From positions 27,776,001 to 27,840,000 of the forward strand of contig OZ024754.1 of assembly GCA_964016885.1 (NCBI GenBank): DNA of 64,000 nt. Direction: 5' to 3'. Of the stretch, positions 10,843 through 36,150 are shown one piece after another. Source of the stretch: Eledone cirrhosa. Its lineage: Eukaryota. Positions within the stretch are counted from its first letter, which is position 1. Every line of letters begins with the position of its first letter. Made by a program: the position numbers and the translations under genes. The notes below the pieces were generated by a model. The model was not told where the DNA came from and did no database searches. It saw only the letters and a program-made list of their open reading frames with translations.

Positions 10843-11487
10843 CCGTATTACTGTAGTGATGGTGCTGTAGCGGTGGCAGCAGCAGTGAAGGAGTCAGGGG
10901 GTGGTGGCGGCGGTGATGGGATAGTGGTGGTAATGATGGCCGTAGTAAGCGGTGGCGGTGAAGGTGAAAATGCTGTTGTGTTTAGTGTACACAGATGATG
11001 GGGTGGGTGGTGTATCTAGTTTCTGGTGTTGGTGAGTTTCGCTGTCCTATATAGTGTAGCCAGAGGAGAGGAGGGGGGGGGGGGGGTTTCTTCTTCTTCC
11101 ATTTATAGCCATTTTATTTTATTGGGGATATACAGTGTACAATACAAAGTTGAATATTTGAATATTTGAGCCGTATTACTGTAGTGATGGTGCTGTAGCG
11201 GTGGCAGCAGCAGTGAAGGAGTCAAGGGGTGGTGGCGGCGGTGATGGGATAGTGGTGGTAATGATGGCCGTAGTGAGCGGTGGCGGTGAAGGTGAAAATG
11301 CTGTTGTGTTTAGTGTACACAGATGATGGGGTGGGTGGTGTATCTAGTTTCTGGTGTTGGTGAGTTTAGCTGTCCTATATAGTGTAGCCAGAGGAGAGGA
11401 GGGGGGGGGTTCTTCTTCTTCCATTTATAGCCATTTTTTTTTGGATATACAGTGTACAATACAAAGTTGAATATTTGAATATTTGAG
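10843..11487. repeat. ~320-330 bp tandem duplication within the A2 5' UTR
   Basis: ccgtattactgtagtg...aatatttgag at 10843-11170 and again at 11171-11487; single copy in A1. Confidence 0.9.
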
Positions 11488-11786
11488 CCTTATAACAATA
11501 TATTTTGGGTCCGAATTTTTTGGGGCTCAAGCCGGGTGCTTTACGTAGCATTTGTACTATTATTATTATTATTGAATGCCATGGTTGACGGAGGCTCGGC
11601 TCTGTAAGGTATAGTAATTTTTAACCGTTAAAACAATTGTAAATTGTTTAAAACTTGAACCAAATTGTTGATAAAGACACCCTCCTCCTCGTGAGAGGGG
11701 TCTTTCTGTCCGTTATTTGGCCCTTCGGGGTTAAATAACCAGTTATTGGGGTTTTGTACCCAAAATTTCATTTTAAACAAAAAAAC

Positions 11787-13886
11787 ATGGCTACCAAAAA
11801 AAAAAAATTTCATACGTCACTCCCACTCATTCCGTCTTCTTCTTCCTCAATCATCACTACAGGAGAGAGAAGATTGTCTCTCTCCCTCCCTTCTTTAAAT
11901 GTGTCTCTCTCCCTACCTTCTCTTTCGCAAGCGACGAAAGAAAAGAAAAGTCTCGTGCAAAGCGTGCAAGGTTTCTCCACGACGACGACGACAGCGACGA
12001 AACAGGTGTGCGGGAAATACGAAAACCCAGTTCATTCGTCTGACGTCAGGAATAATAGCAGTAGCAGCCGTAATAACAACAGCAACAGTGACAATGAAAA
12101 CAACAGTAGCAGCCGCAACAGCATCACCAGCAGCATAAACAACAACAGCATTAGCAGCAGCAACACCAACAACAACCACAGCAACAGCGGCGGAGGCAGT
12201 AGTCGTAGTACCTGCAGCAACAACAAAAGTACCAGCAGCTCTGACGACAACAACAACAGCAGAGAAAAACCAATCTCATTTGCAGGTATTGCGAAAAACC
12301 TGGAAACAATCCTCATAACAAATGAGGAATTAGAGGAAGCGAAGAAGATGGTGACAAAGAACGGACACCGAGCAATCTGCAAGGCAGCGAAAAAATTTTT
12401 CGAAACCCAAGAGCACTGTACGGTCACGTACCGTACAGTAAGTACAAAATCCCGTAGGGTGGAAAGAGCCACAGAGGCCCAAATACAAAAAGCCTTGGGG
12501 TCTGTGTGGCAGAGGAAAACGCACATCACCCGAGGCAAAAAATACGCCACCGTAGACGTACTTTTTGCCACACCCCAGGAGGCAAAGGCCCAATCAGTAG
12601 TGACCCTAAGGAGCGAGGAAATGGTGTTGGTGCCCTCCTACTGCGGGCAAAAAATTGTGAGGGTCAAACTGACCCACGTCCCCCCCGGAATGACCCCTTC
12701 TTGGCTGGCCGCGTCTGTCCTCGTCGGAATCGAGGACAAAACAACTGTACTGCAAGTACAGAAAAAAGTAAGAGAAGATTGGGTCGGCTCCTCCATTGAG
12801 ATGCTAATCCAAACCAACCAGGAGTGCATCGAAGCTATCCCGGATGTGATAGACTTCGATAACGGCACTCAACTGCCCATAAGTGTTGAGGGCAAACGCC
12901 CGAAATGCTTTCGCTGTGGATCGAAGACTCACCTCAGGGCCTTCTGCAACGAGAAGACCCTGAGAAAGGAGAAAACCCCCCTCCTCCCGAATCCGGTTCC
13001 ACGGCTACCAGCAACAGGACAAGCGGCAACCAGGAACGATAGGTCCGTGGCACCCATACCCACTCCACGGAAATCAAAGACAGCAGCAGCAGTGGAAATA
13101 TTAACAACAACAACAGCAATACCAAATGCAGCTGCAACAGAGACTCCAGTGCAAACATCACCAACAACAACAAGTGAAAGAGTGGAGCTGGTACCCCTCC
13201 CCGACCTTACAGAATCAGACATGGAGTGTGAGGTGGGAGAGGGATGGCAAAAGGTCTCAAGAAGGCACAAACGCAGAAGCAGCGCATCGTCGCCTTTGAA
13301 AAGGGAGGAAAGAAATGAGAAAAGGGTAAAGTCTACTGCAAAGAGACCCACAGCAGCAACACCACCAACACCATCACCACCCACACCAGCACCACCATCA
13401 CCACCGGCGACAACCCCACCGCCAACAACACCTTCAACACCACCACCACAAGCACCAACATCGCAAACACAACAACAAAACACACACACCCAGCAACAAC
13501 GACAAGAAAATAGCAGAACCACACCCCACCCCCAGAAAAACAAATGCACGGCAATAAACACACACAACAAGAAACTAATGACTTACATAATTGAACACAC
13601 AGACATTTCACAACAGGACTACATAATACCAGCACCAATCAAAACGCCAACTAACATAAGACTGCTAAAAATAGCACAGAAACAATACACAAACATTAAA
13701 ACGAAATTCCCCAACGCAGTTGGTGATTTCAGGGACCTAGGAGGAACCATTAATCGAAGAGTATATTCAGACATTCTCTTAGAAGAGCCGACGACCAGCC
13801 GAAGGGACGATTCAACGGTCCCTTCACCAGACGATCAAGTGAAAAGGGATGTAAAAACCATCCCTCCTCTACCAAAAATACGGTAA
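11787..13886 (+). CDS. Tx1-type ORF1 (gag-like nucleic-acid-binding protein)
   Basis: ATG at 11787 (aaacATGg), S/N-rich N-terminus, central folded region, CCHC zinc knuckle CFRCGSKTHLRAFC, P/T-rich linker. Lies 35 nt upstream of ORF2. Confidence 0.88.
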   Translation: MATKKKKFHTSLPLIPSSSSSIITTGERRLSLSLPSLNVSLSLPSLSQATKEKKSLVQSVQGFSTTTTTATKQVCGKYENPVHSSDVRNNSSSSRNNNSNSDNENNSSSRNSITSSINNNSISSSNTNNNHSNSGGGSSRSTCSNNKSTSSSDDNNNSREKPISFAGIAKNLETILITNEELEEAKKMVTKNGHRAICKAAKKFFETQEHCTVTYRTVSTKSRRVERATEAQIQKALGSVWQRKTHITRGKKYATVDVLFATPQEAKAQSVVTLRSEEMVLVPSYCGQKIVRVKLTHVPPGMTPSWLAASVLVGIEDKTTVLQVQKKVREDWVGSSIEMLIQTNQECIEAIPDVIDFDNGTQLPISVEGKRPKCFRCGSKTHLRAFCNEKTLRKEKTPLLPNPVPRLPATGQAATRNDRSVAPIPTPRKSKTAAAVEILTTTTAIPNAAATETPVQTSPTTTSERVELVPLPDLTESDMECEVGEGWQKVSRRHKRRSSASSPLKREERNEKRVKSTAKRPTAATPPTPSPPTPAPPSPPATTPPPTTPSTPPPQAPTSQTQQQNTHTQQQRQENSRTTPHPQKNKCTAINTHNKKLMTYIIEHTDISQQDYIIPAPIKTPTNIRLLKIAQKQYTNIKTKFPNAVGDFRDLGGTINRRVYSDILLEEPTTSRRDDSTVPSPDDQVKRDVKTIPPLPKIR

Positions 13887-13921
13887 GTGGTCTTTCCCAT
13901 CTTTTCCACTCTATTTTAAAC

Positions 13922-16900
13922 ATGACCTCACTCAGAATAGGCAGCATAAATGCGCGTGGCTTGGGGTCGTCATGGAAGCAGGGTCACCTGCTCAACGACC
14001 TCAGGTCACTAAACATAGATGTAGTGGCCATCAGCGAGACCAGAATCTCCGAAGCACGGGCCTTCGCACCGATCTTCGGCGGCTACGATGTGTACGCATC
14101 TCCCAGCCGTCCTGGATCGGGTGGAGGAGTTGCTGTGCTTTTTCGGAGAGGTTTGGATCTCGCCATACGGGCCATCTTCCTGGACCCAGAGGGTAAGCTG
14201 GTGGTGCTGGACGTGACCAGCGGAGACGGGCAAGCTTTCAGGCTAGTGGCCGTCTATGCCCCGACAGGAGCAGGGCGGCCTGATTTCTTCCGGCGTCTGG
14301 AGACCTTTCTTGGAACGTCGCGCTCTTTAGTGTTAGTGGGCGACTGGAACGGGATCTTAGATGCACGCTGGGACTGTGTGGGATTAGCGGATAGGAGTGG
14401 AGGGTGCAAGAGCCTCACCAACCTGCTCAAGCGTTTTGAACTGTCTGACAGGTACCGATTGGATTTCCCGAATGTGCCCATGTGGACTTGGACAAACCGC
14501 ATAGGGTCATCCAGATCATATCTAGATAGAGTATTTTGTAGGGAAATAGATAGGTCTAGCATAGGCTGTCCACAATTCAAGATAGTCAGCTACACGGACC
14601 ACAAATTCGTGACCTGTGTGCTTGACTTAGATAGGCTTCATAGACGAGGACCCGGCTACTGGAAGCTAAACGCGTCCTTACCAGCGCGCAAGGCCTACAG
14701 AGACCGGATTAGCGAACTAGTTAAGCGGGCGTTGACGGGGGCCATCGTCAACAACAAGTGGTGGTTTGCTCTGAAAAGAGCGATTAGAATAGAATCGATT
14801 AGGTTTAGTAAGGCTTTAGCAATAGAGAAAAATAGAGCAGAGGGAGAACTAGTTAGAAAATTAGACGAGGCGCTTAGCAAAGGCATTGCGACCGACGTGC
14901 TTGCGGCGAAATTGGCCCTTGACCAATTCTTCAATGCAAAGCACGAAGGCTGCGTTGTCAGAGCTAGGGTGCGTGCTCTCAGACACGAGGGGACGAAAGC
15001 CGTTCAATGGGCCCGAGTGGCGGAGGCGCGTCGTGGCAACAAAGCCACGATCGGGTCTTTGGTGGACCACGACGGGCGCATGCTACTCGATCCCGGGCAA
15101 ATGTGTGAAGCTTTTCAGCGACACTTCGCTCAGCTGTTCGGGGGCAGCGGGGGGCCGGGTAGAGGGATGGACTTTAGTGTCTACCTCGACGGACTGCCGC
15201 GGCTCTCGGCCACTGAGGCGAAGTGTTGCGAAAAGCCGATAACAGCCGCTGAAGTACGGGAGGCAATGACTGGCTGCACAAGGGGTAAATCGCCTGGTTT
15301 GGATGGTCTGCCCTATGAACTTTACGTACAGATGCCAGACTTGTTCGGAGGCCTCTTGGCGGACGTCTACTGCAACTGGCAACAGAACGGGAGAATTCCC
15401 AGTTCTGTGAGCCGAGGAGCGGTGGCACTGCTGAGAAAGGATCCGAACAAGGGGGATAACATAGACAATTTCCGGCCCATAACTCTGCTAAACACAGAGT
15501 TTAAGATTTTGGCCAAGGTGCTAGCAAAGAGGTTGGCGCTTGTCGTTGGTGGTCTGGTGGGAGAGGCGCAGACATGCGCCATTCCCGACAGATCCATCCA
15601 CGACAACCTCCACCTCATGCGATACATCGTAGAGAGGGTAGCTAGGGAACCTGGCACGGGTGGGTCCTTGATCAATTTAGATCAGTCGAAAGCTTTCGAT
15701 AGGGTCGACCATCGTTACCTAGCGGCAGTCCTGAGGGCGGCTGGCTTTGGGCCCGTCTTCAGAGGCTGGATCGCTGCCATGCACAGCGACATCTGCTCTG
15801 TGGTGAGAGTGAACGGTCACCTGTCGGAACCGTTCAACATCATGCGCTCGGTCCGCCAAGGATGTCCCCTCTCGTCCCTCTTGTACGTATTGACTCTCGA
15901 GCCATTACTGCACAAACTGGAGACGTTGAGGGGAGTCCCGCGCGAACTAGGATGCGGAAGATCCGTGTCAGCATATGCGGACGATGTCACCGTAGTGGTG
16001 TCGAACGCCAAACACATCGAGGCGATCGGCACTACACTAAGAGAATACGAAGCGGTGACAGGAGCAATGATCAACCAGGAAAAGTCAGTGGGCCTGCAGC
16101 TCGGCACCTGGAGAGGCAGGTCCATGCCGTCCAACAGCGTCGTCGGGCGCTGGACGGACGGACCGGTTAAATTGCTAGGGGTCTGGTTCGGTCCGGACCT
16201 CCAGACGGACAAAAACTGGGACGAGGTGACGAGCAGGGTGGCTTCTCTCACCCAGAAATGGGCGGAGAGGAAGCTATCCCTGAAAGGTCGAGCGGAGGTG
16301 GCTAACGCGTACATCGCGTCTGTCATCTGCTACCGCCTAACCGTCGTACCTTGTCCTAAGCCTCGCCTGACTGCGCTGGAGCGTTTGCTCTTTCGCTTTT
16401 TGTGGAAGGGACGTGCTCCGATGGTCAGGCGGTCCATCTGTTGTCAACACCCGCTACGTGGAGGGCTGGGCATGCCGTGGCTGATGATGCGCAGGCACGC
16501 GCTCAGGCTACGACATCTCCACCTCTTCCTCGACGGTGATCAGGTGTGGTCGCCGTTTGCTAGACGCGTTTTTCCCCAGCTCGTTTCCTTGACGGAGCTG
16601 CAGTCCTGGGTCAAGCGAAGACCGAGAGGGAGCGCCTGGAGACTGGAATGTCTTCAGGCGCTCACAGCCCTCGACCAATCGGGCAATGTGATCGGTGGAA
16701 ACTCCACCTCGGCGTTCTATAGAGGATTAGTGGAGGGGAAGAGCGACGACGTACTTGGGGAAACTCTAGGCGTCGACGAAAATCAACTAGCCAATCTCTT
16801 CGGAAGAACTTTCGGGCCAGGGCCTATGGACAACTTCCAGAAATCTCTGGCCTGGCAGTGCTACCGAGGAGCCTTGCCAGTTCGGGATAAACTCTACAGG

Positions 16901-17341
16901 CATGGAGGTGCCGTCAGCCGGGCATGTCCGAGATGTGCGCAGGGCGACGAAACCGTCCTGCACGCACTCGTCCAGTGTCCGAAAATTGCTGACTTGTGGG
17001 TTTATGTCGAACACCTGCTGTCGCGTTTAGGACGGATCCAGCTATCATCTGAGTCTATCGTGAGGATTGCCCCGCCCTCCTCCTTTAGCCGGGAAGGGCA
17101 GGCAGTTTTTATCTGTCTGGTGGCCATGGCGAAAGAGATAGTATGGTGGACACGTTTGAAAGGGCTGAAGACGAGCACTTACCTCTTCGGTGATGCTCTG
17201 ATTGACTTTTTCAAATTTCATTTGAAAAGGAAAATCAGAGTAGAGAAGGAAGTGCTCTCTTCCCAGCATTTTGTTGAAAGATGGGTGAGAGAAGCAAGAA
17301 TGGCCCGAGTGAATGGGCCGACTCTGAGTATATATCTGTAA
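13922..17341 (+). CDS. Intact Tx1-type ORF2: APE endonuclease + reverse transcriptase + C-terminal CCHC
   Basis: APE motifs SINARGL, ISET, VYAP, GDWN, SYLDRVF, TDH. GPGYWKLN. RT motifs KSPGLDG, FRPITLLN, LDQSKAFDRV, VRQGCPLS, AYADD. C-terminal CPRC...ETVLHALVQC. Confidence 0.96.
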   Translation: MTSLRIGSINARGLGSSWKQGHLLNDLRSLNIDVVAISETRISEARAFAPIFGGYDVYASPSRPGSGGGVAVLFRRGLDLAIRAIFLDPEGKLVVLDVTSGDGQAFRLVAVYAPTGAGRPDFFRRLETFLGTSRSLVLVGDWNGILDARWDCVGLADRSGGCKSLTNLLKRFELSDRYRLDFPNVPMWTWTNRIGSSRSYLDRVFCREIDRSSIGCPQFKIVSYTDHKFVTCVLDLDRLHRRGPGYWKLNASLPARKAYRDRISELVKRALTGAIVNNKWWFALKRAIRIESIRFSKALAIEKNRAEGELVRKLDEALSKGIATDVLAAKLALDQFFNAKHEGCVVRARVRALRHEGTKAVQWARVAEARRGNKATIGSLVDHDGRMLLDPGQMCEAFQRHFAQLFGGSGGPGRGMDFSVYLDGLPRLSATEAKCCEKPITAAEVREAMTGCTRGKSPGLDGLPYELYVQMPDLFGGLLADVYCNWQQNGRIPSSVSRGAVALLRKDPNKGDNIDNFRPITLLNTEFKILAKVLAKRLALVVGGLVGEAQTCAIPDRSIHDNLHLMRYIVERVAREPGTGGSLINLDQSKAFDRVDHRYLAAVLRAAGFGPVFRGWIAAMHSDICSVVRVNGHLSEPFNIMRSVRQGCPLSSLLYVLTLEPLLHKLETLRGVPRELGCGRSVSAYADDVTVVVSNAKHIEAIGTTLREYEAVTGAMINQEKSVGLQLGTWRGRSMPSNSVVGRWTDGPVKLLGVWFGPDLQTDKNWDEVTSRVASLTQKWAERKLSLKGRAEVANAYIASVICYRLTVVPCPKPRLTALERLLFRFLWKGRAPMVRRSICCQHPLRGGLGMPWLMMRRHALRLRHLHLFLDGDQVWSPFARRVFPQLVSLTELQSWVKRRPRGSAWRLECLQALTALDQSGNVIGGNSTSAFYRGLVEGKSDDVLGETLGVDENQLANLFGRTFGPGPMDNFQKSLAWQCYRGALPVRDKLYRHGGAVSRACPRCAQGDETVLHALVQCPKIADLWVYVEHLLSRLGRIQLSSESIVRIAPPSSFSREGQAVFICLVAMAKEIVWWTRLKGLKTSTYLFGDALIDFFKFHLKRKIRVEKEVLSSQHFVERWVREARMARVNGPTLSIYL

Positions 17342-17569
17342 ACTAAAGGTGGAAAACTGGGAGAGGGCACTTGCCTTGGTGGTCAGGGTCATTGTGGCTT
17401 TTTACTGGGCTTTCTCCACAAATGTCCCTCCGAAGTCTCCCCCCTATTGGGGAATTTTTCATTGTTATTTTCATTGTTATTTTTGTTACATCCTCTGTTT
17501 TTGTTTTTTTTTTACACGCAGAAATGCCCATTTGTACTGTCCTGCATTGTCCTGCACTGTCCTTAATGT

Positions 17570-20500
17570 CTATTATCCTCTCCTTCAGTACAATTCTGAG
17601 CATTGGCTCCTTACTATCAGTCACGTATTTGTGTAGGTTGTTTTTCTCCATCTGCACACTGTTCTCTATGCTGATAAGACCTCTTCCACCTTCAGATCTC
17701 CTTTAGTAGAGTCTATCGACATCACTCCTCTTGTGGAACATGTTGTAGATAGTCAATAGCTTCCTAGTTTTCCTATCCATTTCTTTTTGTTCAGCAACAT
17801 TCCATCTCAGAATTCCCGCACTGTACCTAATAATAGACACAGCTCGGGAATTTACTGCACTTATGGCATTCCTACTGTTCAGGTGTGACTTTAATACGCT
17901 CCTTACTCTCCGAATGTATTCAGATCTTATCAATTCCTTCATTTTTTTGTTCTTGATGTCATCAGCCTCCAGAACACCCAAATACTTGTATCCTTCTTCA
18001 GTGTCAATTTCTTTTATCATCTCACCTGTTGGTACCTGGATTCCGCTGCTTCTTCATCACAAGGACTCCACACTTACTAATACCAAATTGCATACATATA
18101 TCATTGCTGAAAATACGGACAGTGTCAACAAGCACATCCAACTCCTTCTCACTCTTCCCGAAGAGCTTAAGATCGTCCATGAAGAGGGGGTGATTGATAG
18201 TAAGCTCTCCCTTTGCCAACTTGTATCCTGCTCTCACTTTTCGCAGTATAATGGTCAGGGGCATCAGGGCAAGAACAAACAAGAGAGGGGACAGACTATC
18301 TCCTTGGAAGATACCTCTCTTGATCTTCACGCCTCCCAAGGATTCTCCAGCTGATGTTAACTCTGTTTTCCAGGACTTCATACTTTTGCCCAACAACTGT
18401 CTGATGTTATCTGCCACCTTGAAGATCTCTAGGCTTTTGGTGATCCAAGAATGAGGCACCATGTCAAATGCCTTTTTGTAGTCTATCCATCCCATGACAA
18501 GACCAGTGTGTCTCCTCTTGCAATTCCTTATCAATAAGTAACTGGTCCTTTGTACCACGGGACTTCTTTCGGCATACTTTCTGTTCGTCCGGTAACACGT
18601 TGTTTGTATGAAGCTGATGGTAGATTTCCTCAGACATAATTCTTGTCAACAGTTTCCACATTACGGACAGACATGTGATAGGTCTATAGTTGGTAACATC
18701 ATTACCCTTGATTCGGTCTTTCATTACCAGAACTGTGGTACCTTTTGTCAACCATTCTGGTACCTCACCTGACATCAAGCAGTCATTGAACATGGTTGTC
18801 AGTTTCGGGTGGAGGGATGTTATATTTTTAATCCAATACCCCTGCACACCATCTGGGCCTGGTGATTTCCAGTTGGTTAGTTTTTTTACCTGCCCCTTAA
18901 GAGTTTCAACTGTGATACTCAAATCAGTTTGTTGGTGTGCTTCTTCACTAATCTCCTTTTGTACTGTCTTAATCCACACTGCCTGGTCATTATGTTTAAC
19001 ATCCTGCTCCCATATTCCTCTCCAGAATGTCTTAGTTTGTTCCGCCTCAGGGATCAAGTCGTTGCCTCTTTCTTTCCCTTCAAGCTGTCCAAACAGCATC
19101 TTCTGGTTGTTGTCAAACATGCGGTTCTGTCTATACTGACTGACTCTGCTCTCGTATCGCCTAATTTTTGCACTCTTTGCTACAATGCGTTGCTTCAGTT
19201 CCTCTATGATAATATTTAGCTTTTTCCTCCTAGTTTTGTACTTTATTTCCATTCTATTTTTACTGTCTATGTTTTTTAGTGTCCCATTCAGTAGGGATTC
19301 AAGCTTTCCAATGTCATTTCTCATTTCCCTGATTTGACCATTCACTCGTTTCTTCCACCAAGGTTCTGATCTTTCTTGTTTGTTGTTTCCTCTCGCTTTT
19401 ATGCCAAGTAATTTCCTCACCGCATTTGCTGTTGCTTTGAGGATATTGTTGCACTGGTGAAGGCTCCTCGCCTCAAGGTATGGGATGACTTTGTTTACCT
19501 TAGCTGTTGTTTCTTTTACATTTTTCCTGTCTACAAATCTTAGGTTCATAGGTTTCCCACTATCATTGTTCAATTCATCTACCACTAAGTTTAGGATATC
19601 AACCAAATCTTGTCCTAGCCCGTCAGCATTCATCTCCTCAATGACCGTATCTTTGTTCCAGGTATTATTTATTTCAGCATTCAGATCATTGTCTGCTTCG
19701 GGTGGTTCCTCCGTTCTCTCAACCTCTTCACCTTCATTTCCCACTGGCTCGTTTGCCTGGCATACTCCGCTCTCCATTTCCAACCTAATCTCTCTGCTCA
19801 GTTCCTCCAGTTCCAGCTCGCTTATCCACCCATTAGTTATTATTACCCGAGCCTGCCCGACCAATTTTTGTTCATCTAATTTAAATAGACCAATCTCGTT
19901 CCAGATGTTATGCATCCGTTTCCTATAGCCTTTCTCCTTGGGGTTACTCTTCAGGTAACATTGCATAACAGTTCTATTCAATTCTTTCGTCCAGTTGATT
20001 CTGGTCCCTTTCCTTCTTCTTCTTCCGACACCAGCAGTATTTGGTTGACAGCCAGGTCCCTGCTGCTGAGCCAGGTAGCACCTGCTGGGTGAGAGTCTGT
20101 CACATGACATTCCAGTCTCCACTTCACCGTTATTCGAACTGTTTAGGTTCGACATTTAAACACTCTTATCGAGGATTGGTAAATGTATGGTTACATAACC
20201 ACCGGTGATTTCATCCCCTCCGGTGATTTTAGTGTGGCACTATCACGCTGTAGACGAACATAAATAAACAAACAAATAGGTAAAAAAAAAAAAAAAAAGA
20301 ATAGGCATAAGTTTCATTGTAATGTAATGTTTGAATGTCTGACTTAGTTATTTTTTTCCTCCTTCTATGTCTGTCTGTTTCTTTTTCTTTTCATTTTTCT
20401 TTTCTTTACGTTTTTCGTTGTTGCTGTGCTGTTTTGATTTTGATTTTTGTTTTTTTGATATCTTGACCGGGTCATCAAATCAGTCTATTTATATCTTTGG

Positions 20501-21068
20501 ATGCTTTCCTCTTTTAGTGGGGGTACTACGATGCATGTCTTAGCAGGAGGTAGTGGGAGAGAATAACGGCGGTAGCGATAATGAGGCAGTGGTGGTGGTG
20601 GTGCTGTGCTAGTAGTACTTAGCAGGAGGTAGTGGGAGAGAATAGCGGCGGTAGCGATAATGAGGCAGTGGTGGTGGTGATGTGATCGTAGTACTGTAGT
20701 GATGATGGTGTTGAAGTTGAAGTAGAAATAGAAGTTGAGGTAACTTGACTAGAGTTTTTGGCGTGGTAGTGGTGATAGTGGCGGTGGTGGTGTTGGTGGT
20801 GAAATTATTTAGCCATTTTGCCATTTTCCTCTTTTTCGACTATAACATTTCTGATCCAAAATTAAATATTAAATATTGGGGCCCTATGCGGTAAAGTGAT
20901 GCGTTGTGGCTTGCTGAGCGTAAAAAACTACAAATAATAAACTACAAATTCTTATACATCATTTGTAATAAGAATTATTCTATCACAGTTGTTTTAAATA
21001 AGTAAAAATCAAAAACTTACGAGAGCGATTCCATAACGATATATATCCACCATGTACGTTGTCTTCCC
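17570..21068 (-). mobile_element. Dong-like copy A3 (diverged subfamily; frameshifted; 3' part lost)
   Basis: ORF pieces 20155-18464, 18558-18022 and 18020-17703 match the A1 protein. 5' end GGGAAGA at 21068. The C-terminal ~0.9 kb is absent at the T1 junction. Confidence 0.92.
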
Positions 21069-25135
<4,067 letters not shown>

Positions 25136-25399
25136 CTTTTTGTTGTTTTTTTTTAAATTGTTATTATCATGAGTGGCTCCTTAATGTGAGCATTGCGTGG
25201 CTTAAGAATGAAATTATTAATAATTGTCTCCACTCCAGGAACAAGGCCAGCAATCACCCAATGCATTACAATAATATAATATACTTTTTGCTGAAGTTGC
25301 CTGTTATTGTTGTTGGCTATGTCGGAGGTGGTGATGGGGCTTTTTATATTGTTGGTGAGGAAGGGGTGAGCCAGCAGTCCCATAGTTGTTGATTTTGAC

Positions 25400-25800
25400 G
25401 TTTGGCCGGTGGCCAGGTCACTAAGTCAATCTATTTATATCTTTTGCTAGCCTCTCCCTTGTCTAGTGATACCGCCACCTTCCCCTTTCTCTCTCAAGTT
25501 AACAGGGGAATAGTGGTGGTAGCAATGAAGGAGTGGTGGCGGCGGTGATGGGATAGTGGTAGCAATGATGGATGGAGTGGTGGCGGCGGTGGCGTTGTCG
25601 TTACTGAGTTTTGTGATATGTAGTATATATGAGTTTGTGTCGTGTATGTTTAATATATATTGTGTTGACATAGTCCCGTAAAATTGGAATTAAACATTTT
25701 GTTAAAACTTGAGACAATAATAATAGTAATTATTATTATGATGCTGGGATTGGTGGTGGTGGTGGTGAAATTGCCGTTATCTGGCTGTTATATTTAGTGT
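25400..25800 (-). mobile_element. Mosaic of segments homologous to the family A 5' UTR
   Basis: gtca..tcaatctatttatatctttt matches A3 ~20470-20500. gtggtggcggcggtgatgggatagtggt matches A1 ~6345-6373. cgttatctggctgtt..tttagtgt matches A5 ~28920-28945. Confidence 0.65.
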
Positions 25801-25803
25801 GAT

Positions 25804-27685
25804 AGGGTTCTTGCTGTTCCCAGCAGGCATGCCTTTGAAGCGTTCCAAAAAGCGTGAAGGGGCCAATTTTCTTTAACCATCCCTGGAAACTTTTTGAGAT
25901 AGTACCTAGTGCGCCTATGACAATCGGGATCACTTTGACTTCATGGCAGTTCCAAATCCTTTTTACCTCCCACTTTAAGTCCTGGTATCGGTTAATTTTC
26001 TCCCTCTCCTTCTCTTGCACTCTCGTGTCGAATGGGTAGGCCACATCCACAATCAGGCACGATCTTTTTTCTTTGTCCACAACCACCAGGTCAGGTCTAT
26101 TGTGTTCCAGTTTCTTGTCCGTCTGTATCCTAAAATCCCACAGCACCTTCACCTGATCGTTTTCTATCACCGACTCTGGCTTATGCTCATACCACTTCTC
26201 AGAATGTGGTAAATTGTTTACTTTGCATAGGTGCCAGTGGATCACCCTGCCCATCACATGATGTCTCCAGCCCTTATAGTGAGTCTGGGCTAGGTGTTTA
26301 CACTCGGATACAATGTGAGCCACAGTCTCCTCTCTCTCTCCACAGATCCTGCACAGTGGGCTAGCCTCCTCCTTGTAAATATGGTGTTTCAACCACTTCG
26401 TTTTGAGGGCCTGCTCCTGCGCAGCCATTAACATTCCTTCTGTAGCCTTTCTAAGGTCTCCTCTTTTCAACCAGTTCCATCTCTAAATTCAGTTTTCTCA
26501 AAGAAGGTACTATGAAGGGATTTTTCATGAAGGCTGCTCTTTCTCCTTGATGTTATTTCCTCCTTGGACATCCCCTGGCCTATTGTCCTCCTCCTTCAGT
26601 ACAGTTCTGAGCATTGGCTCCTTATTATCAGTCACGTATTTGTGTAGGTTGTTTTTCTCCATCTGAACACAGTCCTCTATGCTGATAAGACCTCTTCCAC
26701 CTTCAGATCTCCTTAAGTAGAGTCTATCGACATCACTCCTCTTGTGGAACATGTTGTAAATAGTCAATAGCTTCCTAGTCTTCCTATACATTTCTTTTTG
26801 TTCAGCAACATTCCATCTCAGAATTCCCGCACTGTACCTAATAATAGACACAGCTCGGGAATTTACTGCACTTATGGCATTCCTACTGTTCAGATGTGAC
26901 TTTAATACGCTCCTTACTCTCCGAATGTATTCAGTTCTTATCAATTCCTTCATTTTTTTGTTCTTGATGTCATCAGCCTCCAGAACACCCAAATTCTTGT
27001 ATCCTTCTTCAGAGTCAATTTCCTTTATCATCTCACCTATTGGTACCTGGATTCCGTTACTTCTGCTCAACTTACCCCTCTTCATCACAATGACTCCACA
27101 CTTACTAATACCAAATTGCATACATATATCATTGCTGAAAATACGGACAGTGTCAAAAAGCACATCCAGCTCCTTCTCACTCTTCCCGAAGAGCTTAAGA
27201 TCGTCTATGAAGAGGAGGTGATTGATGGTAAGCCCTCCCTTTCCCAACCTGTATCCTGCTCTCACTTTTCGCAGTACACTGGTCAGGGGCATCAGGGCAA
27301 GGACAAACAACAGAGGGGACAGACTATCTCCCTGGAAGATACCTCTCTTGATCTTCACGCTTCCCAAGGATTCTCCAGTTGATGTTTACTCTGTTTGCCA
27401 GGACTTAATACTTTTGCCCAACAACTGTCTGATGTTATCTGCCACCTGAAGATCTCCAGGCTTTTGGTGATCCAAGAATGAGGCACCATGTCAAATGCAT
27501 TTTTGTAGTCTATCCATCCCATGGCAAGACCAGTGTGTCTCCTTGCAATTCCTCATTACCATCTTATCAATAAGTAACTGGTCCTTTGTACCACGTGACT
27601 TCTTTCAGCATCCTTTCTGTTCGTCCGGTAACAAGTTGTTTGTGTGGAGGTGATGGTAGATTTCCTCAGACATAATGCTTGTCAA

Positions 27686-27687
<2 letters not shown>
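25804..27687 (-). mobile_element. Dong-like copy A4, 5'-truncated, disrupted, 3' UTR missing
   Basis: RT C-half and RLE pieces (27367-26525, 26470-25804). The 5' truncation point abuts (TTA)n at 27688. Confidence 0.92.
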
Positions 27688-27749
<62 letters not shown>

Positions 27750-27761
27750 GTTATTGTTATT

Positions 27762-28965
27762 CCTTGAATCTCAGTCATTGATGTTGGTTAACTGGAAAGT
27801 CCGTTGGATTGAATATCAAGCCACTACCTGCAGCCTCAGATATTCAGGACGTATCGGAGGGTTCTTGCTGTTCCAAGCAAGCATGCCTTTCCAAAAAGCG
27901 TGAAGGGGCCGATTTTCTTTAACCATCCCTTTGAAACTTTTGTTCATCTAATTTAAATAAACCAATCTCGTTCCAGATGTTATGCATCCGTCTCCTGTAG
28001 CCCCTCTCCTTGGGGTTACTTTTCAGGTAACATTGCATAACAGTTCTATTCAATTCTTTCGTCCAGTTGGTTCTGGCCCCTTTCCTTCTTCTCCTTCCTC
28101 CAACATCAGCAGTATTTGGTTGACAGTCAGGTTCCTGCTGCTGAGCCAGGGGGCACCTGTTGGGTGAGAGTCTGTCACATGACGTTCTAGTCTCCATTTC
28201 ACCGTTATTCGAACTGTTTATGTTCGATATTTAAACACTATTATCGAGGATTGGCGAATGTATGGTTACATATCCATCTGTGGATCCGCTATTCCACTTG
28301 GCCCTTGTGTGGCATTATCACCACGCTGTATACGAACACACATAAACAAACAAACACACAGGCAGAAAGGGCCCCAAAAATGAATAAGCATAAGTTTCAT
28401 TGTAATGTAGTGTTCGAATGTCTGACTTAGTTTTTGTTTTTTAAGTTTTAGTTTTTCCCCCCTCTTCTCTGTCCGCCCGCCTGTTTCTCTCTTCATTCTT
28501 ATTTTCTTTACGTTTTTGGGGTTTTCTGTTTTTTTTTGTTTTTGTTTTTCTCTGTTTGTTTTTCTCGTTTTTTGCTGTTGTTGCTGTGCTGCTTTGGTTT
28601 TGTTGTTTGTTTTTTCTTTTTTCTTTTGAGTCTATCTATATATTTTGATGCCTTCCTCTTTGTTAGTAGTAGGAATTCTATAATGTGGAAGTAGCAGCCA
28701 GCAGGGAGAAGTGGGAGACTGGCGGCGGTAGCGATACTGAGATAGTGGTGGTGGTGATGTCGATACCGAGGCAGTGGTGGCGGTGATGCGACCGTATTAC
28801 TGTAGTGATGGTGCTGTAGCGGTGGCAGCAGTGAAGGAGTAAAGGGGTGGTGGCGGCGGTGATGGGATAGTGGTGGTAATGATGGCCGTAGTGAGCGGTG
28901 GTGGTGAAGGTGAAAATGACGTTATCTGGCTGTTGTGTTTAGTGTACACAGATGGGGTGAGTGGT
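27762..28965 (-). mobile_element. Dong-like copy A5, internally deleted (~3 kb), both flanks in (TAA)n
   Basis: Most of the 5' UTR plus the first ~87 codons are joined at ttttg (27938-27942) to the last ~100 nt of the ORF and the 3' UTR. Confidence 0.92.
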
Positions 28966-28977
28966 TATTATTATACG

Positions 28978-29031
<54 letters not shown>

Positions 29032-29511
29032 TGATTCTCAGTCATTGATGTTAGTTAACTGGAAAGTTTGTTGACATGAATATCAAGCCACTACCTGCAG
29101 CCTCAGATATTCAGGACGTATCGGAGGGTTCTTGCTGTTCCCAGCAAGCATGCTTTTTGAAGTGTTCCAAAAAGCGGGGCGGGGCCGATTTTCTTTAACC
29201 AACCCTGGAAACTCCTTGAGATAGTACCTAGTGCGCCTATGACAATCGGGACCACTTTGACCTAATGGCAGTTCCAAATCTTTTTTAGCTCCCACTTTAA
29301 GTATCGGTTAATTTTCTCCCTCTCCTTCTCTTGCACTCTCGTGTCGAATGGGCAGGCCACATCCACAATCAGGTACGATCTTTTTACTTGTCCAAAACCA
29401 CCAGGTCAGGTCTATTGTGTTCCAGTTTCTTGTCCGTCTGTATCCTAAAATCCCACAGCACCTTCACCTGATCGTTTTCTATCACCGACTCTGGCTTATG
29501 CTCATACCACT
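29032..29511 (-). mobile_element. Dong-like copy A6, short 5'-truncated 3' fragment
   Basis: Matches the A1 3' ~0.5 kb and is flanked by (TTA)n on both sides. Confidence 0.9.
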
Positions 29512-29512
29512 C

Positions 29513-29580
<68 letters not shown>

Positions 29581-29785
29581 GGCGACCTACTTAGTAAATG
29601 TTATCATCGTGAGCTCCGCAAAGGTTTGTTATTTTCAGTTGTTTAAAATTGCCATTTATGAAATTTTTTATTGTTAAATGTGCACATACATTGTTTTCTG
29701 AAAAGGACACACAAAAAGATTGGGGCCTTGAGCCCAAAATTTATACTTTTATAATTATCAAACAAAAGTTTTTCTTTGTAAAATC

Positions 29786-31601
29786 ATGGACGACTCAAAG
29801 TCATACCTTCCTCACAATCTAACACCTCACACCGACACCACCATTGTAAATATTACTACGTTTGCCAACACTAAAAATATAAGCAGTAGCAACATTTTAA
29901 ATTTGTCTCAGGCAGACATTCATTTCCCGCCATTACCAATGACTGCAGGTGTTAAAGCCCCCCCCCCCCCCCCCCACCCACCCACCACCACCACCACCAC
30001 CGCGACCCCACCCCCATCCCACCACCACCATGACCCCCCCCCCCTCTACCACCACCACCGCGACAACAGAAACAAAAGAAAAAAATAAATTAACTCGTGA
30101 TATCGAAATGAATTCAACCTAAATGAACTCTTCCACACCGAACACCACTGACGCCATCACCACCACAACTGAAACTAAAATTAACAATAACAAAAATAAC
30201 GATAACAACAACAACAACAATGAAATTAAGAAAACAACCCTGAGTTTTGCCAGAGTAGCAAAAAATGCGAAGCATTTCAGGTAACTCAGGAGGAATTAGA
30301 AGTAGCCAAAAAAATGGTAAAGAAAGTTGGGTACAGGGTCAGCCTCAACCCCCCCCCCCCCCCGCCTAATAAAATGGAGCATCGGCGCCTATGCACCGTG
30401 TCTTATCGAACAATTAATATAAAATCGCGCCGAGTGTAACGGCCATCCGAGTCCCAAATCCAAAAAGCTTTGGGACATGTGTGGGAAAAAAAAACCCACA
30501 TCAGACGTAGGCAGAAATATGGAAACGTGGACGTGTTCTTTGAAACACCACATGAGGCTAGAGAACACTCCATGGCCCCATTAAGAAGTGACGACTTCAC
30601 ACTCGTCCCAATCTATTGTGGCCAGAGACTCGTAAAGATAAGGGTGACCCACGTTCCACCGGCCATCGAAATTCCCTGGCTAATAGCTGCCGTCCTCGCC
30701 GGCATCGAAGCCAACACCAAGATAATCGAAATAGCGAAAGAAAAGCGGGAGAACTGGTCCGGATCTGGGATGGAGCTCCTGATCCAAGCGGACCAAAAAA
30801 GCATTGAGGAGATCCCAGAGGTAATAGACCTCACTGACGGCAGCCACCTCACCGTAATCGTCGAGGGCAGAAGGCCTAGGTGTGTCGTTTGTGGTGAAGG
30901 AACCCACCTAAGGGCTTTCTGCCTTCGGGCTAAAAGGTTGAGGCCACCTCTCTTACCCACCCCAGTGACTCAACCATCAACACCAGCAGCAGCAGCAGAG
31001 ATGGCAGCAACAACTGTAGCAGCAACAACAGAAGCAACTGTAACAGCAACAACCCCAGCAACAGTAGCAAAACCAACACCACCACCACCAAAAAAGAAAA
31101 AATTCTCTTCCTTCCTCCTCCAAAAACAAAATACAGAGGGAAACAAATAAACTATTAAAAAAAAAAGTTAGGACAGATATGCCACCAGCCACACCAGCAT
31201 CACCAACCCCATCACCACTAACACCAACACCATCACCATCATTAACCCCACCACCACCTACACCACAAAAGTCACCAAAAAGCGAAACAGAAACAAACCC
31301 ACAACAAACGCAAACAAAACAAAACAACCAAAACGATACACACTACACAGCATTAAATTTGAACAACAACCAATTATTACACTACATCCAACACAACACC
31401 AGCATCACAGAAAATGACTACACAACAACCCAAAAGTTCACACCACCTCCACACATACAAATCACTCGCATCACACAGAAAACTTACATGACACTAAAAC
31501 AAAAATTCCCCAAAGACATCGGAGGCTTCCGACAAGCACTCTCCAGGAGGATTTATAAGGACATCCTTCCTGAGGAGGCCACAAGCAGTGAAAAGGAATA
31601 G
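29786..31601 (+). pseudogene. Disrupted Tx1 ORF1, divergent from T1 ORF1
   Basis: Pieces 29786-30088, 30470-31150 (VWEKKTHIRR..KYGNVDVFF..PIYCGQ..VEGRRPRCVVCGEGTHLRAFC) and 31179-31601 (KFPKDIGGFR..SRRIYKDIL). Confidence 0.85.
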
Positions 31602-31630
31602 GGAGCATAAATTCCACAAGCGGTGAAAAG

Positions 31631-34600
31631 GAATAGGGAGCATAAATGCGCGTGGCTTGGGATCGGCATGAAAGCAGGGCCACCTGCTCAACGACCTCAG
31701 GTTACTAAACATAGATGTAGTACCATCAGCGAGACCAGAATCTCCGAAGCACGGGCCTTCGCACCGATCTTCGGCGGCTACGATGTGTACGCATCTCCCA
31801 GCCGTCCGGGATCAGGGGGAAGAGTTGCTGTGCTTTTTCGGAGAGGTTTGGATCTCGCCATACGGGCGATCTTCCTGGACCCAGAAGGTAAGTTGGTGGT
31901 GCTAGACGTGACCAGCGGAGACGGGCAGGCTTTCAGGCTAGTGGCCGTCTATGTCCCGACAGGAGCAGGGCGGCCTGGTTTCTTCCGGCGTCTGGAGACC
32001 TTTCTTGGAACGTCCCGCTCTTTAGTGTTAGTGGGCGACTGGAACGGGATCTTAGATGCACGCTGGGACTGCGTGGGATTAGCGGATAGGGGAGGAGGGT
32101 GCAAGAGCCTCACCAACCTGCTCAGGCGTTTTGAACTGTCTGACGGGTACCGATTGGATTTCCCGAATGTGCCAATGTGGACTTGGACAAAACGCATAAG
32201 GTCATCCAGATCATATCTAGATAGAGTATTTTGTAGAGAAATAGATAGGTCTAACATAGGCTGTCCACAATTCAAGATAGTCAGCTACACGGACCACAAA
32301 TTCGTGATCTGTGTGCTTGACTTAGATAGGCTTCATAGACGAGGACCCGGCTACTGGAAGCTAAACGCGTCCTTACCAGCGTGCAAGGCCTACAGAGACC
32401 GGATTAGCGAACTAGTTAAGCGGGCGTTGACGGGGGCCATCGTCAACAACAAGTGGTGGTTTGCTCTGAAAAGAGCAATTAGAATAGAGTCCATTAGATT
32501 TAGTAAGGCTTTTGCAATAGAGAAAAATAGAGAAGAGGGAGAATTAGTTAGAAAATTAGACGAGGCGCTTAGCAAAGGCATCGCGACCGACGTACTTGCG
32601 GCGAAACTGGCCCTTGACGAATTCTTCAATGCAAAGCACGAAGGCTGCGTTGTCAGAGCTAGGGTGCGTGCTCTCAGACACGAGGGGACGAAAGCCGTTC
32701 AATGGGCCCGAGTGGCGGAGGCGCGTCGTGGCAACAAAGCCACGATCCGGTCTTTGGTGGACCACGACGGGCACATGCTACTCGATCCCGGGCAAATGGG
32801 TGAAGCTTTCCAGCGACACTTCGCCCAGCTGTTCAGGGGCAGCGGCGGGCCGAATGGAGGGATGGACTGTAGTGTCTACCTCGACGGGTGCCGCGGCTCT
32901 CGGCGACTGAGGCGGAGTGTTGCGAAAAGCCGATAACAGCCGCTGAAGTACGGGAGGCAATGACTGGCTGCACAAGGGGTAAATCGCCTGGTTTGGATGG
33001 TCTACCCTATGAACTTTACGTACAGATGCCAGATTTGTTCGAAGGCCTCTTGGCGGACGTCTACTGCAACTGGAAACAGAACGGGAGAATTCCCAGCTCT
33101 GTGAGCCGAGGAGCTGTGGAGCTGCTGGGAAAGGATCCGAACAAGGGGGATAACAGATAATTTCAGGCCCATAACTTTGCTAAACACAGAGTTCAAGATT
33201 TTGGCCAAGGTGCTAGCAAAGAGGTTGGCGCTTGTCGTTGGTGGTCTGGTGGGAGAGGCGCAGACATGCGCCATTCCCGACAGATCCATCCACGACAACC
33301 TCCACCTCATGCGATACATCGTAGAGAGGGTAGCTAGGGAACCTGGCACGGGTGGGTCCTTGATCAATTTAGATCAGTCGAAAGCTTTCGATAGGGTCGA
33401 CCATCGTAACCTAGCGGCAGTCCTGAGGGCGGCTGGCTTTGGGCCCGTCTTCAGAGGCTGGATCACTGCCATGCACAGCGACATCTGCTCTGTGGTGAGA
33501 GTGAACGGTCACCTTTCGGAACAGTTCAACATCATGCGCTCGGTCCGCCAAGGATGTCCCCTCTCGCCCCTCTTGTACGTATTGACTCTCGGGCCATTAC
33601 TGCACAAACTGTAGACGTTGAGGGGGGTCCCGCGCGAACTAGGATGCGGAAGATCCGTGTCAGCATATGCGGACGATGTCACCGTAGTGGTGTCGAACGC
33701 CAAACACATCGAGGCGATCGGCTCTACACTAAGAGAATACGAAGCGGTGACAGGAGCAATGATCAACCAGGAAAAGTTAGTGGGCCGGCAGCTCGGCACC
33801 TGGAGAGGCAGGTCCATGCCGTCCAACAGCGTCGTAGGACGCTGGACGGACGGACCGGTTAAATTGCTAGGGGTCTGGTTCGGTCCGGACCTCCAGACGG
33901 ACAAAAACTGGGACGAGGTGACGAGCAGGGTGGCTTCTCTCACCCAGAAATGGGCGGAGAGTAAGCTATCCCTGAAAGGTCGAGCGGAGGTGGCTAACGC
34001 GTACATCTCATCTGTCATCTGCAACCGCCTGATCGTCGTACCTTGTCCTAAGTCTCGCCTGACTGCGCTGGAGCGTTTGCTCTTTCGCTTTTTGTGGAAG
34101 GGACGCGCTCCGATGGTCAGGCGGTCCATCAGTTGTCAACACCCGCTACGTGGAGGGCTGGGCATGCCGTGGCTGATGATGCGCAGGCACGCGCTCAGGC
34201 TACGACATCTCCACCTCTTCCTCGACGGTGATCAGGTGTGGTCGCCGTTTGCTAGACACGTATTTCCCCAGCTCGTTTCCTTGACGGAGCTGCAGTCCTG
34301 GGTCAAGCGAAGACTGAGAGGGAGCGCCTGGAGACTGGAATGTCTTCAGGCGCTCACAGCCCTCGACCAATCGGGCAATGTGATCGGTGGAAACTCCACC
34401 TCGGCGTTCTATAGAGGATTAGTTGAGGGGAAGAGTGACGACGTACTTGTGGAAACTCTAGGCGTCGACGAAAATCAACTAGCCAATCTCTTCGGAAGAA
34501 CTTTCTGGCCGGGACCTATGGACAACTTCCAGAAATCTCTGGCCTGGCAGTGCTAGCGAGGAGCCGTGCCAGTTCGGGATAAACTCTACAGGCATGGAGG

Positions 34601-35033
34601 TGCCGTCAGACAGGCATGTCCGAGATGCGCGCAGGGCGACGAAACCGTCCTGCACGCACTCGTCCAGTGTCCGAAAATTGCTGACTTGTGGGTTTATGTC
34701 GAACACCTGCTGTCGCGTGTAGGACGGATCCGGCTATCATCTGAGTCCATCGTGAGTATTGCCCCGCCCTCTTCCTTTAGCCGGGAAGGACAGGCAGTTT
34801 TTATCTGTCTGGTGGCTATGGCGAAAGAGATAGTATGGTGGACACGTTTGAAAGGGCTGAAGACGAACACTTACCTCTTCGGTGATGCCCTGATTGACTT
34901 TTTCAAATTTCATTTGAAAAGGAAAATCAGAGTAGAGAGGGAAGTGCTCTCTTCCCAGCATTTTGTTGAAAGATGGGTGAGAGAAGCAAGAATGGCCCGA
35001 GTGAATGGGCCTACTCTGAGTACGTATCTGTAA
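31631..35033 (+). pseudogene. Disrupted Tx1 ORF2
   Basis: Highly similar to T1 ORF2 along its length, with frameshifts and stops; the start codon region is replaced. Confidence 0.95.
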
Positions 35034-35306
35034 ATTAAAGGTGGAAAACTGGGAGAGGGCACTTGCCTTGGTGGTCAGGGTCACTGTGGCCTTTTACTGG
35101 GCTTTCTCCACAAATGTCCCTCCCCCTATTGGGGAATTTTTCATTGTTATTTTTTTTTGTTACATCCTCTGTTTTTGTTTTTTACACGCAGAAATGCCCA
35201 TTTGTACCGCCCTGTATTGTCCTGTACTGTCCTTAATGTCTACTTTATGTAAACCTTTGTGGTTAATAAAGAAATCATTATTATTATTATTATTATTGTT
35301 GTTATT

Positions 35307-35944
35307 CCTTGAATCTCAGTCATTGATGTTGGTTAACTGGAAAGTCCGTTGGATTGAATATCAAGCCACTACCTGCAGCCTCAGATATTCAGGACGTATC
35401 GGAGGGTTCTTGCTGTTCCAAGTAAGCATGCCTTTTGAAGCGTTCCAAAAAGCGTGAAGGGGCCGATTTTCTTTAACCATCCCTGGAAACTTTTGGAGAT
35501 AGTCCCCAGTGCGCCTATGATAAACGGGATCACTTTGACTTCATGGCAGTTCCAAATCCTTTTCACCTCCCACTTTAGGTCCTGGTATCGGTTAATTTTC
35601 TCCCTCTCCTTCTCTTGCACTCTTGTGTCGAACGGGCAGGCCACATCCACAATCAGACACGATCTTTTTTCTTTGTCCACAACCACCAGGTCAGGTCTAT
35701 TGTGTTCCAGTTTTTTGTCCGTCTGTATCCTAAAATCCCACAGCACCTTCACCTGATTGTTCTCCATCACCGCCTCTGGCCTATGCTCATACCATTTCTC
35801 AGAATGTGGTAAATTGTTTACTTTGCACAGGTGCCAGTGGATCACCCTGCCCATCACATTGTGTCTCCAGCCCTTATAGTGGGTCTGGGCTAGGTGTTTA
35901 CACTCGGACACAATGTGAGCCACAGTCTCCTCTCTCTCTCCACA
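35307..35944 (-). mobile_element. Dong-like copy A7, 5'-truncated (RLE domain + 3' UTR)
   Basis: ORF 35923-35381 matches the A1 C-terminus; (TTA)n on both sides. Confidence 0.93.
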
Positions 35945-35964
35945 TTGTTATTATTATTATTATT

Positions 35965-36150
35965 CTTGGAGTCTCAGTCATTTATGTTATTTAACTGGAA
36001 AGTTTGTTGAAATGAATATCAAGCCACTACTTGAGGCCTCAGATATTCAAGACGTATCGGAGGGTTCTTGCTGTTCCCAGCAACCATGCCTTTTGAAGTG
36101 TTCCAAAAAGCAGGGCTGGGCTAATCTTCTTTATCATCCTTGGAAACTCT
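35965..36150 (-). mobile_element. Dong-like copy A8, short diverged 3' fragment; right edge of the array
   Basis: Matches the 3' UTR and last codons of family A with many substitutions. Confidence 0.85.

What the first reader, a model, noticed from the sequence alone, without database searches (positions are those of the whole stretch)
11560..35306. Tx1-clade element apparently specific for (ATT)n and lacking a poly(A) tail
Seen: both Tx1 copies start directly after ...attattatt (|gaatgcc at 11574, |ggcgacc at 29581). The intact 3' end of T2 reads AATAAAgaaatc|attattatt, in the same register and with no A-tail. TAA tracts make up only about 1-2% of the array, so two chance hits are unlikely. 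Established: Tx1 relatives target other microsatellites (Kibi TC, Koshi TTC). I do not recall a TAA-specific Tx1 family but cannot search for one. Inference: this is a candidate new APE target specificity, and T1 ORF2 is intact and testable.
Basis: partly seen in the sequence, partly recalled or inferred. Interest (0 to 1): 0.8.

Follow-up and report, generated by a model that had tools for sequence, protein, structure and literature searches.

The report
Tailless LINE landing in ATT repeats
Two separate copies of an L1/Tx1-type jumping gene sit exactly at ATT-repeat tracts and the one intact end has no poly(A) tail, which suggests a preferred landing site not listed for this group, likely set by a loose T/AA cut plus pairing of the RNA's own end with the repeat, though only two insertions could be examined.

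Summary
The three junctions are as described: (ATT)5|T1 at 11574, (ATT)22|T2 at 29581, and T2 AATAAA-GAAATC|(ATT)7 at 35277, with no poly(A). T1's 3' end is missing. T1 and T2 look like independent insertions: ORF2 is 96% identical, but 5'UTR and ORF1 are different (54% amino-acid identity in the ORF1 core). Both sit in tracts between copies of a TAA-targeting Dong/R4-like element on the opposite strand.

The chance argument holds only against uniform insertion (about 3e-4). A nuclease that merely nicks T/AA in AT-rich DNA hits tracts twice with p about 0.26 and predicts the same strand and register. The missing poly(A) is probably a lineage trait: 0 of 66 3' ends of a sister family carry one. 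Those ends have nine different short tails, seven of them with an identical endonuclease loop.

No further copies could be read: no genome is held, and the read tool listed no junction rows. Verdict: a plausible (ATT)n-preferring Tx1-like family, with a target absent from the Tx1 lists I could read; endonuclease-encoded specificity is not shown.

The parts
11559..11573 (+). (ATT)5 tract between the truncated 5' end of Dong-like copy A2 and the 5' end of T1
11574..17572 (+). T1: L1/Tx1-type LINE, 213-bp 5'UTR, two open frames, 3'UTR ending 34 bp short of the T2 end
11787..13886 (+). T1 ORF1 (699 aa): low-complexity ends, core resembling ZCCHC3-type RNA-binding domains plus one CCHC knuckle
   Evidence: no Pfam hit
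13922..17341 (+). T1 ORF2 (1139 aa), open: APE endonuclease, RT, C-terminal zinc finger; 9-residue betaB6-betaB5 loop (WTNRIGSSR)
29513..29580 (+). (ATT)22 tract between the truncated 5' end of Dong-like copy A6 and the 5' end of T2
29581..35276 (+). T2: both ends present, both frames broken; 5'UTR and ORF1 do not align to T1 as DNA; 95.8% identical to T1 from 31631 on
31579..31647 (+). 35-bp tandem duplication at the T2 ORF1/ORF2 boundary, where similarity to T1 begins
35265..35276 (+). AATAAA signal and the last 6 element-specific bases of T2; no poly(A)
35277..35297 (+). (ATT)7 tract after T2, running into the 3' end of Dong-like copy A7
2232..6782 (-). Dong/R4-like copy A1, full length, ORF 2318-5743 open (RT, CCHC, restriction-like nuclease motif read by eye; no APE by Pfam), (TAA)n at both ends
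6795..11559 (-). Dong/R4-like copy A2, ORF 6881-10306 open, about 100 bp short at the 5' end, head to head with T1
17570..21076 (-). Dong/R4-like copy A3 (89% to A1), lacking its 3' 895 bp at the T1 join
21192..25728 (-). Second, diverged Dong/R4-like family (copy B), frames broken, (TAA)n at both ends
25804..29509 (-). Truncated Dong-like copies A4, A5 and A6, separated by (TAA)n tracts
35296..36152 (-). Truncated Dong-like copies A7 and A8; end of the array

Best explanation
T1 and T2 are two L1/Tx1-type LINE copies lying at (ATT)n tracts in one orientation, and the family likely prefers such tracts because a predicted loose T/AA nick of the (AAT)n strand would give a primer that pairs with AUU units likely present at the RNA's 3' end. 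Steps. Shown: the junctions, the domain content and the absence of poly(A) at T2. Inferred: the first nick falls at 5'-AAT/AAT-3' on the bottom strand, the same T/AA step that human L1 cuts; the RNA ends about 11-18 nt after AATAAA, inside the downstream tract; reverse transcription starts on that (AUU)2-4 end, so no A-tail is copied; any target duplication is hidden in the repeat. The Dong-like element uses the same tracts from the other strand and keeps supplying new ones.
For: Three of three informative junctions are at (ATT)n in one register. The copies look independent: different heads, different flanks, and 61 of 126 ORF2 substitutions at third codon positions. Uniform insertion is rejected (about 3e-4), and 0 of 13 strict L1 TTTT/AA sites lie in tracts. 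Strand and register are those a T/AA nick predicts. The T1 hairpin loop has L1's length of 9 residues, not the 11 of Tx1L and TRAS1 (PMC1950540, passages). In the sister clade (SH-aLRT 100 for the joint group), 0 of 66 3' ends carry poly(A), and the element ends 11-18 nt after AATAAA at the 4 array ends and 3 joins to truncated units. Seven of its nine tail types share one loop sequence. PMC1950540 (passages) names RNA-target pairing as a possible extra determinant of L1 site choice.
Against: Only two insertions and one 3' end. The RNA end was not observed; it is carried over from a family only 42% identical in another organism. The 66 sister ends are not independent (tandem copies on 16 contigs), and their arrays can arise by template jumps or DNA duplication without any tail guidance. 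A relaxed AT-rich inserter with no ATT preference fits the window at p about 0.26. The read data listed no junction rows, so nothing genome-wide supports the preference.
Confidence: 0.45

Rival explanations
1. One reading: the APE domain itself recognises the (TAA)n/(ATT)n repeat, as is assumed for Kibi (TC)n and Koshi (TTC)n.
For: Same junction facts. 115 of 130 TAAT/AA sites in the array are in tracts. Tx1-clade families have repeatedly acquired microsatellite targets (PMC4494074, passages and section 15). The T1 loop differs from that of the sister clade.
Against: Nothing here requires sequence read-out beyond T/AA in AT-rich DNA. The loop is L1-sized. T2 differs from T1 at two loop positions, which may be decay. 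Sister endonucleases with one loop go with many different end sequences.
Confidence: 0.25
2. No ATT preference: the family inserts at AT-rich T/AA sites anywhere, and inside this roughly 43% GC array the tracts are simply half of the available sites.
For: 116 of 227 WWWT/AA sites of the array lie in tracts, so two hits have p about 0.26. The family is very abundant in the laid runs, so some copies in tracts are expected.
Against: With only T/AA required, p is 0.025 (126 of 793 sites). A tail-less RNA still needs something to prime on, and the repeat offers exact pairing. The WWWT/AA null was chosen after seeing the data.
Confidence: 0.25
3. The pattern is secondary: (ATT)n is only an element-made 3' tail that Dong later targeted, and the 5' tracts were brought next to T1 and T2 by deletion or recombination within the array.
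For: The array is rearranged (T1/A3 join, internal deletion in A5, duplication in A2). Some LINEs do end in TAA repeats (I element; PMC3747384, passage).
Against: It needs two separate rearrangements, each ending exactly at the apparent start of a different 5'UTR (213 and 205 bp before ATG) and in the same register. Read depth stays high into the first bin of T2 in run X7, so T2's head is not visibly eroded.
Confidence: 0.05

Closest known systems
Microsatellite-targeting Tx1-clade LINEs: Kibi (TC)n, Koshi (TTC)n, crocodilian families on (TTCC)n/(TTTC)n (PMC4494074, passages and section 15); telomere-inserted Tx1-1_ACar (PMC10088271, passages)
   Same: APE-RT-zinc finger ORF2, CCHC-bearing ORF1, insertion inside a simple repeat.
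   Different: The repeat is (ATT)n, not a T/C pyrimidine tract. Kinship to Kibi or Koshi was not testable (no reference sequences). The basis is two copies.
Dong (R4 clade; name and clade partly recalled), listed as targeting TAA microsatellites in silkworm, mosquito and snail (PMC3812793, passage)
   Same: Same repeat. Dong-like copies surround T1 and T2, and 8 of their 9 5' ends abut a tract.
   Different: Restriction-like nuclease rather than APE, single ORF, opposite orientation in the tract, so the other strand would be nicked first.
Human L1 (5'-TTTT/AA-3' nick, poly(A) tail; PMC1950540, passages)
   Same: Best PDB match of ORF2 (E 1.6e-52); conserved catalytic residues; same loop length; inferred T/AA nick; replacement of the 5' module (known for L1, recalled).
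   Different: No poly(A) at the intact end; upstream bases AAT instead of TTT; CCHC-type rather than Transposase_22 ORF1.
Unnamed sister family on probably animal contigs inside genome G001 (record title: uncultured Arenicella MAG)
   Same: 42% identical ORF2, homologous ORF1, AATAAA close to the end, no poly(A), several 5' heads on one ORF2 type.
   Different: Forms head-to-tail arrays of up to about 70 kb, no ATT at junctions, 11-residue loop.

Membership tests
L1 group (L1/Tx1) of non-LTR retrotransposons | ORF2 with N-terminal APE, RT and C-terminal zinc finger | tested here: met
   Pfam Exo_endo_phos, RVT_1, zf-RVT
L1 group (L1/Tx1) of non-LTR retrotransposons | ORF2 closer to L1 than to R2 | tested here: met
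   PDB: L1 ORF2p E 1.6e-52 over residues 4-854, against R2 E 1.3e-21 over RT only
Tx1 clade | Type I ORF1 (RRM plus CCHC knuckle), which in non-mammalian animals goes with Tx1 (PMC5203782, passage) | tested here: met
   CCHC motif in the T1 and T2 ORF1; Atlas hits 0.91-0.94 to CCHC and ZCCHC3-type RNA-binding clusters; no Pfam hit, so the RRM call is a lead
Tx1 clade | RT groups with named Tx1 references (Tx1L, Keno, Kibi, Koshi) | not testable with these tools
   No named Tx1 sequence was returned; the tree (quick method, 53 rows) places T1 only among unnamed relatives
Microsatellite-specific Tx1 families (Kibi/Koshi type) | The same repeat flanks more than 20% of a genome-wide sample of copies (criterion in PMC4494074) | tested here: inconclusive
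   2 of 2 copies, both from one array; no genome held; no junction rows listed
Microsatellite-specific Tx1 families (Kibi/Koshi type) | Endonuclease nicks the repeat selectively | not testable with these tools
   Needs a bench assay; the single-sequence model was unusable (pLDDT 36.8)
Dong/R4 (neighbouring element) | Single ORF with RT, CCHC and restriction-like nuclease, inserted in (TAA)n | tested here: met
   RT by Pfam, no APE; nuclease motif read by eye; tracts at 8 of 9 5' ends; RT phylogeny with a named Dong not tested

The most novel reading that the evidence does not exclude
In this L1/Tx1 lineage the landing site is written in a short, exchangeable RNA tail between AATAAA and the transcript end, not in the endonuclease. 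A source copy that picks up (AUU)n homes to (ATT)n tracts, while sister subfamilies with an identical endonuclease loop but other 11-18-nt tails home to their own tails and build subfamily-pure tandem arrays. That would be a LINE retargetable by about 15 bases of RNA.
Probability: 0.2. Interest if true: 0.75.

Novelty: new variant of a known kind. Interest (0 to 1): 0.4.

Why it matters
If the preference holds genome-wide, it adds (ATT)n to the Tx1 target list and gives another case of an APE element and a restriction-like-nuclease element converging on one target, as Keno and Utopia do on U2 (PMC4640811, passage), here from opposite strands of the same tract. That alone is a modest addition. 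The larger stake is how the site is chosen. T1 ORF2 is intact, and the sister family offers near-identical endonucleases with different tails, so the question of nuclease read-out versus RNA-primer pairing becomes directly testable by tail swaps.

Tried and rejected
No whole genome is held for the window, so the genome-wide logo could not be made. Related-locus scans with T1 ORF2 alone found nothing in viral or metagenome contigs. With alignment A1, the metagenome scan gave 80 distant loci (22-48% identity, best segment) with no ATT/TAA tract of 4 or more units, and the genome scan gave 44 loci, 40 of them in G001. A 17-base pattern from the T2 end gave 17 viral-contig matches, all limited to 17-24 bases and treated as chance. 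Reads and contigs of 4 of 19 listed runs were laid on T2: the repeat stretch at the 3' junction was skipped (24 loose-end rows dropped in X17) and no junction row was shown; X13 is another organism (16 reads). The large loose-end peak at 32620 lies on an EcoRI site and is taken as a RAD library artefact. Counts of records running over the ends of the stretch (43, 4 and 886) cannot be assigned to an end and were not used. The single-sequence fold of the endonuclease failed. Rfam and ARAGORN found no ribozyme, tRNA or snRNA at the junctions. T1 and T2 as one duplicated insertion was rejected (different heads and flanks; third-position excess). Strict L1 TTTT/AA targeting was rejected for these sites (0 of 13 such sites in tracts). 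Earlier scan notes held nothing on this genome or sequence.

Full report
Setting. The window is AT-rich animal DNA full of microsatellites. A cephalopod is my guess, from the mix of Dong-R4-like and L1-Tx1-like LINEs that octopus annotations also report (PMC13282606 and PMC8967140, passages); it was not tested. From 2196 to 36152 lies an array of nine Dong/R4-like copies on the minus strand and two L1/Tx1-type copies, T1 and T2, on the plus strand. Two Dong-like ORFs are open (1141 codons between stops) and carry RT, a CCHC finger and a restriction-like nuclease motif, with no APE. Eight of their nine 5' ends, truncated ones included, abut a (TAA)n tract. That is what a tract-specific element looks like and serves as an internal yardstick.

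The observation. T1 starts at 11574 after (ATT)5, T2 starts at 29581 after (ATT)22, and T2 ends AATAAA-GAAATC then (ATT)7, with no A-run. All three junctions fall between whole ATT units. T1 stops at 17572, 34 bp before the point where T2 ends, and joins the inside of a Dong-like copy that lacks its own last 895 bp. A later deletion is the simplest reading, and this junction says nothing about the target. So the evidence is two 5' ends and one 3' end.

Are the copies independent? Probably yes. From the start of ORF2 on they are 95.8% identical, but their 5'UTRs and ORF1s do not align as DNA and the ORF1 cores are 54% identical as protein. Of 126 ORF2 substitutions, 61 are at third codon positions, which points to divergence under selection in separate source lineages. 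Laid contigs agree that heads are modular: in run X7 the T2 head bins have mostly 118,000-292,000 summed depth against 500,000-1,035,000 for ORF2, while in run X1 (another organism label) the two 5'UTR bins have 11 and 2 against 440,000-1,455,000 (these are not copy numbers).

Is it chance? Tracts are 1.6-1.8% of the non-Tx1 array, so two uniform hits have p about 3e-4, or about 0.02 if one hit is what drew attention. But APE nucleases are not uniform. Counting nick sites on both strands: 126 of 793 T/AA steps, 124 of 525 WT/AA, 116 of 227 WWWT/AA, 115 of 130 TAAT/AA and 0 of 13 TTTT/AA sites lie in tracts. Two hits then have p 0.025, 0.056, 0.26, 0.78 and 0. A T/AA nick can only fall on the (AAT)n strand, at AAT/AAT, and that alone gives the orientation and register seen. 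Strict L1 behaviour is excluded for these sites; a loose AT-rich preference is not.

The protein. T1 ORF2 (13922-17341) is open, with APE, RT and zinc finger. Its best solved relative is human L1 ORF2p (E 1.6e-52), and the catalytic N, E, D/N, D and H align. The hairpin loop that influences nick choice in L1 (PMC1950540, passages) has 9 residues, as in L1, against 11 in Tx1L and TRAS1. ORF1 has a CCHC knuckle and resembles ZCCHC3-type RNA-binding clusters, a type that goes with Tx1 in non-mammalian animals (PMC5203782, passage). No named Tx1 sequence was available, so 'Tx1 clade' is likely but not tested by tree.

Relatives. One unnamed protein is 79% identical (P0001, no DNA available); the next group is 38-45%. 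In a quick tree these form one clade (SH-aLRT 100), with T1 and P0001 sister to the rest. That sister group is readable in G001, a bacterial bin that holds microsatellite-rich contigs, probably animal, with 87 matches. There the elements lie head to tail. I found 66 3' ends on 16 contigs with a 3'UTR motif search: none has poly(A) or (ATT)n after AATAAA. Instead there are nine tail types, and each of the 14 contigs with two or more ends shows one type. At 4 array ends and 3 joins to 5'-truncated units the element stops 11-18 nt after AATAAA. Seven tail types share the loop WLDSSPSAKVG, one differs by a residue and one was not parsed; the three endonuclease types compared are 92-95% identical. 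At the two array starts read, the flank partly resembles the tail. These ends are not independent, and template jumps or DNA duplication could build such arrays without tail guidance.

What this does to the finding. First, lacking poly(A) is likely a trait of the lineage and not a mark of an ATT specialist. My best model is a loose T/AA nick of the (AAT)n strand, followed by priming on the RNA's AUU end, which pairs exactly with that primer (0.45). Nuclease read-out of the repeat (0.25) and no real preference (0.25) remain open; rearrangement is unlikely (0.05).

What could not be done. No genome is held. Reads from 4 of 19 listed runs were laid on T2, but the repeat stretch at the 3' junction was skipped and no junction row was listed. 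Collection scans returned no close copy with flanks.

Literature. Ten searches found no Tx1 family on TAA/ATT; one search listed only 40 of 327 papers. I read passages of PMC4494074 (plus section 15), PMC3812793, PMC4640811, PMC1950540, PMC3747384, PMC5203782, PMC10088271, PMC8967140 and PMC13282606 (plus a term search of its supplement). They list Tx1 targets as Tx1D, U2, (TC)n, (TTC)n, (TTCC)n/(TTTC)n, DNA transposons, LTR elements and telomeres, and list TAA only for Dong. Figure 3 and the supplements of PMC4494074, Kojima and Fujiwara 2004, and Repbase were not visible and may hold an ATT-targeting family.

Verdict. It is probably a new target variant of a known kind, on thin numbers: interest 0.4. 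The bolder reading, that a short exchangeable RNA tail sets the target, has probability about 0.2 and would deserve about 0.75.

Noticed in passing
G001 contigs C3-C19 (loci L081-L118, L121-L122, L125-L163): A bin titled uncultured Arenicella holds probably animal contigs with head-to-tail arrays (up to about 70 kb) of mostly intact L1/Tx1-type LINEs. They have no poly(A), one tail type per contig, nine tail types in all and several 5' heads, with near-identical endonucleases.
   Followed up: partly
window 11574-13934 versus 29581-31630: T1 and T2 carry different 5'UTR+ORF1 modules on a 96% identical ORF2. The switch is at the ORF2 start, marked in T2 by a 35-bp duplication, and head abundance differs between organisms.
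   Followed up: partly
window 2196-36152: Array of nine Dong/R4-like copies of two families, all on the minus strand, with two open ORFs (2318-5743 and 6881-10306, 98% identical as DNA).
   Followed up: partly
L119:3036-10137 and L006:1-150: A distant L1/Tx1-type element lies between two U1 snRNA matches in L119. Another (L006) has a U1-like stretch near its start (recognised by eye), recalling the U1-headed Tx1 families of PMC4494074.
   Followed up: no
window about 29722-29745 (+) and 6630-6655 (-): The T2 5'UTR and the Dong-like 5' region share a short CTTGAGCCC-AAAA-TT motif; T1 has a similar GGGG...CCCAAAATTT hairpin before its ATG. Seen by eye; may be chance.
   Followed up: no
window 21068-21191: Compound tract (CTT)13(ATT)29 at the full-length 5' end of Dong-like copy A3.
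   Followed up: no
window 53685-53749 (+) and 62014-62069 (-): Marginal Rfam tRNA matches, not called by ARAGORN; possibly SINE heads.
   Followed up: no
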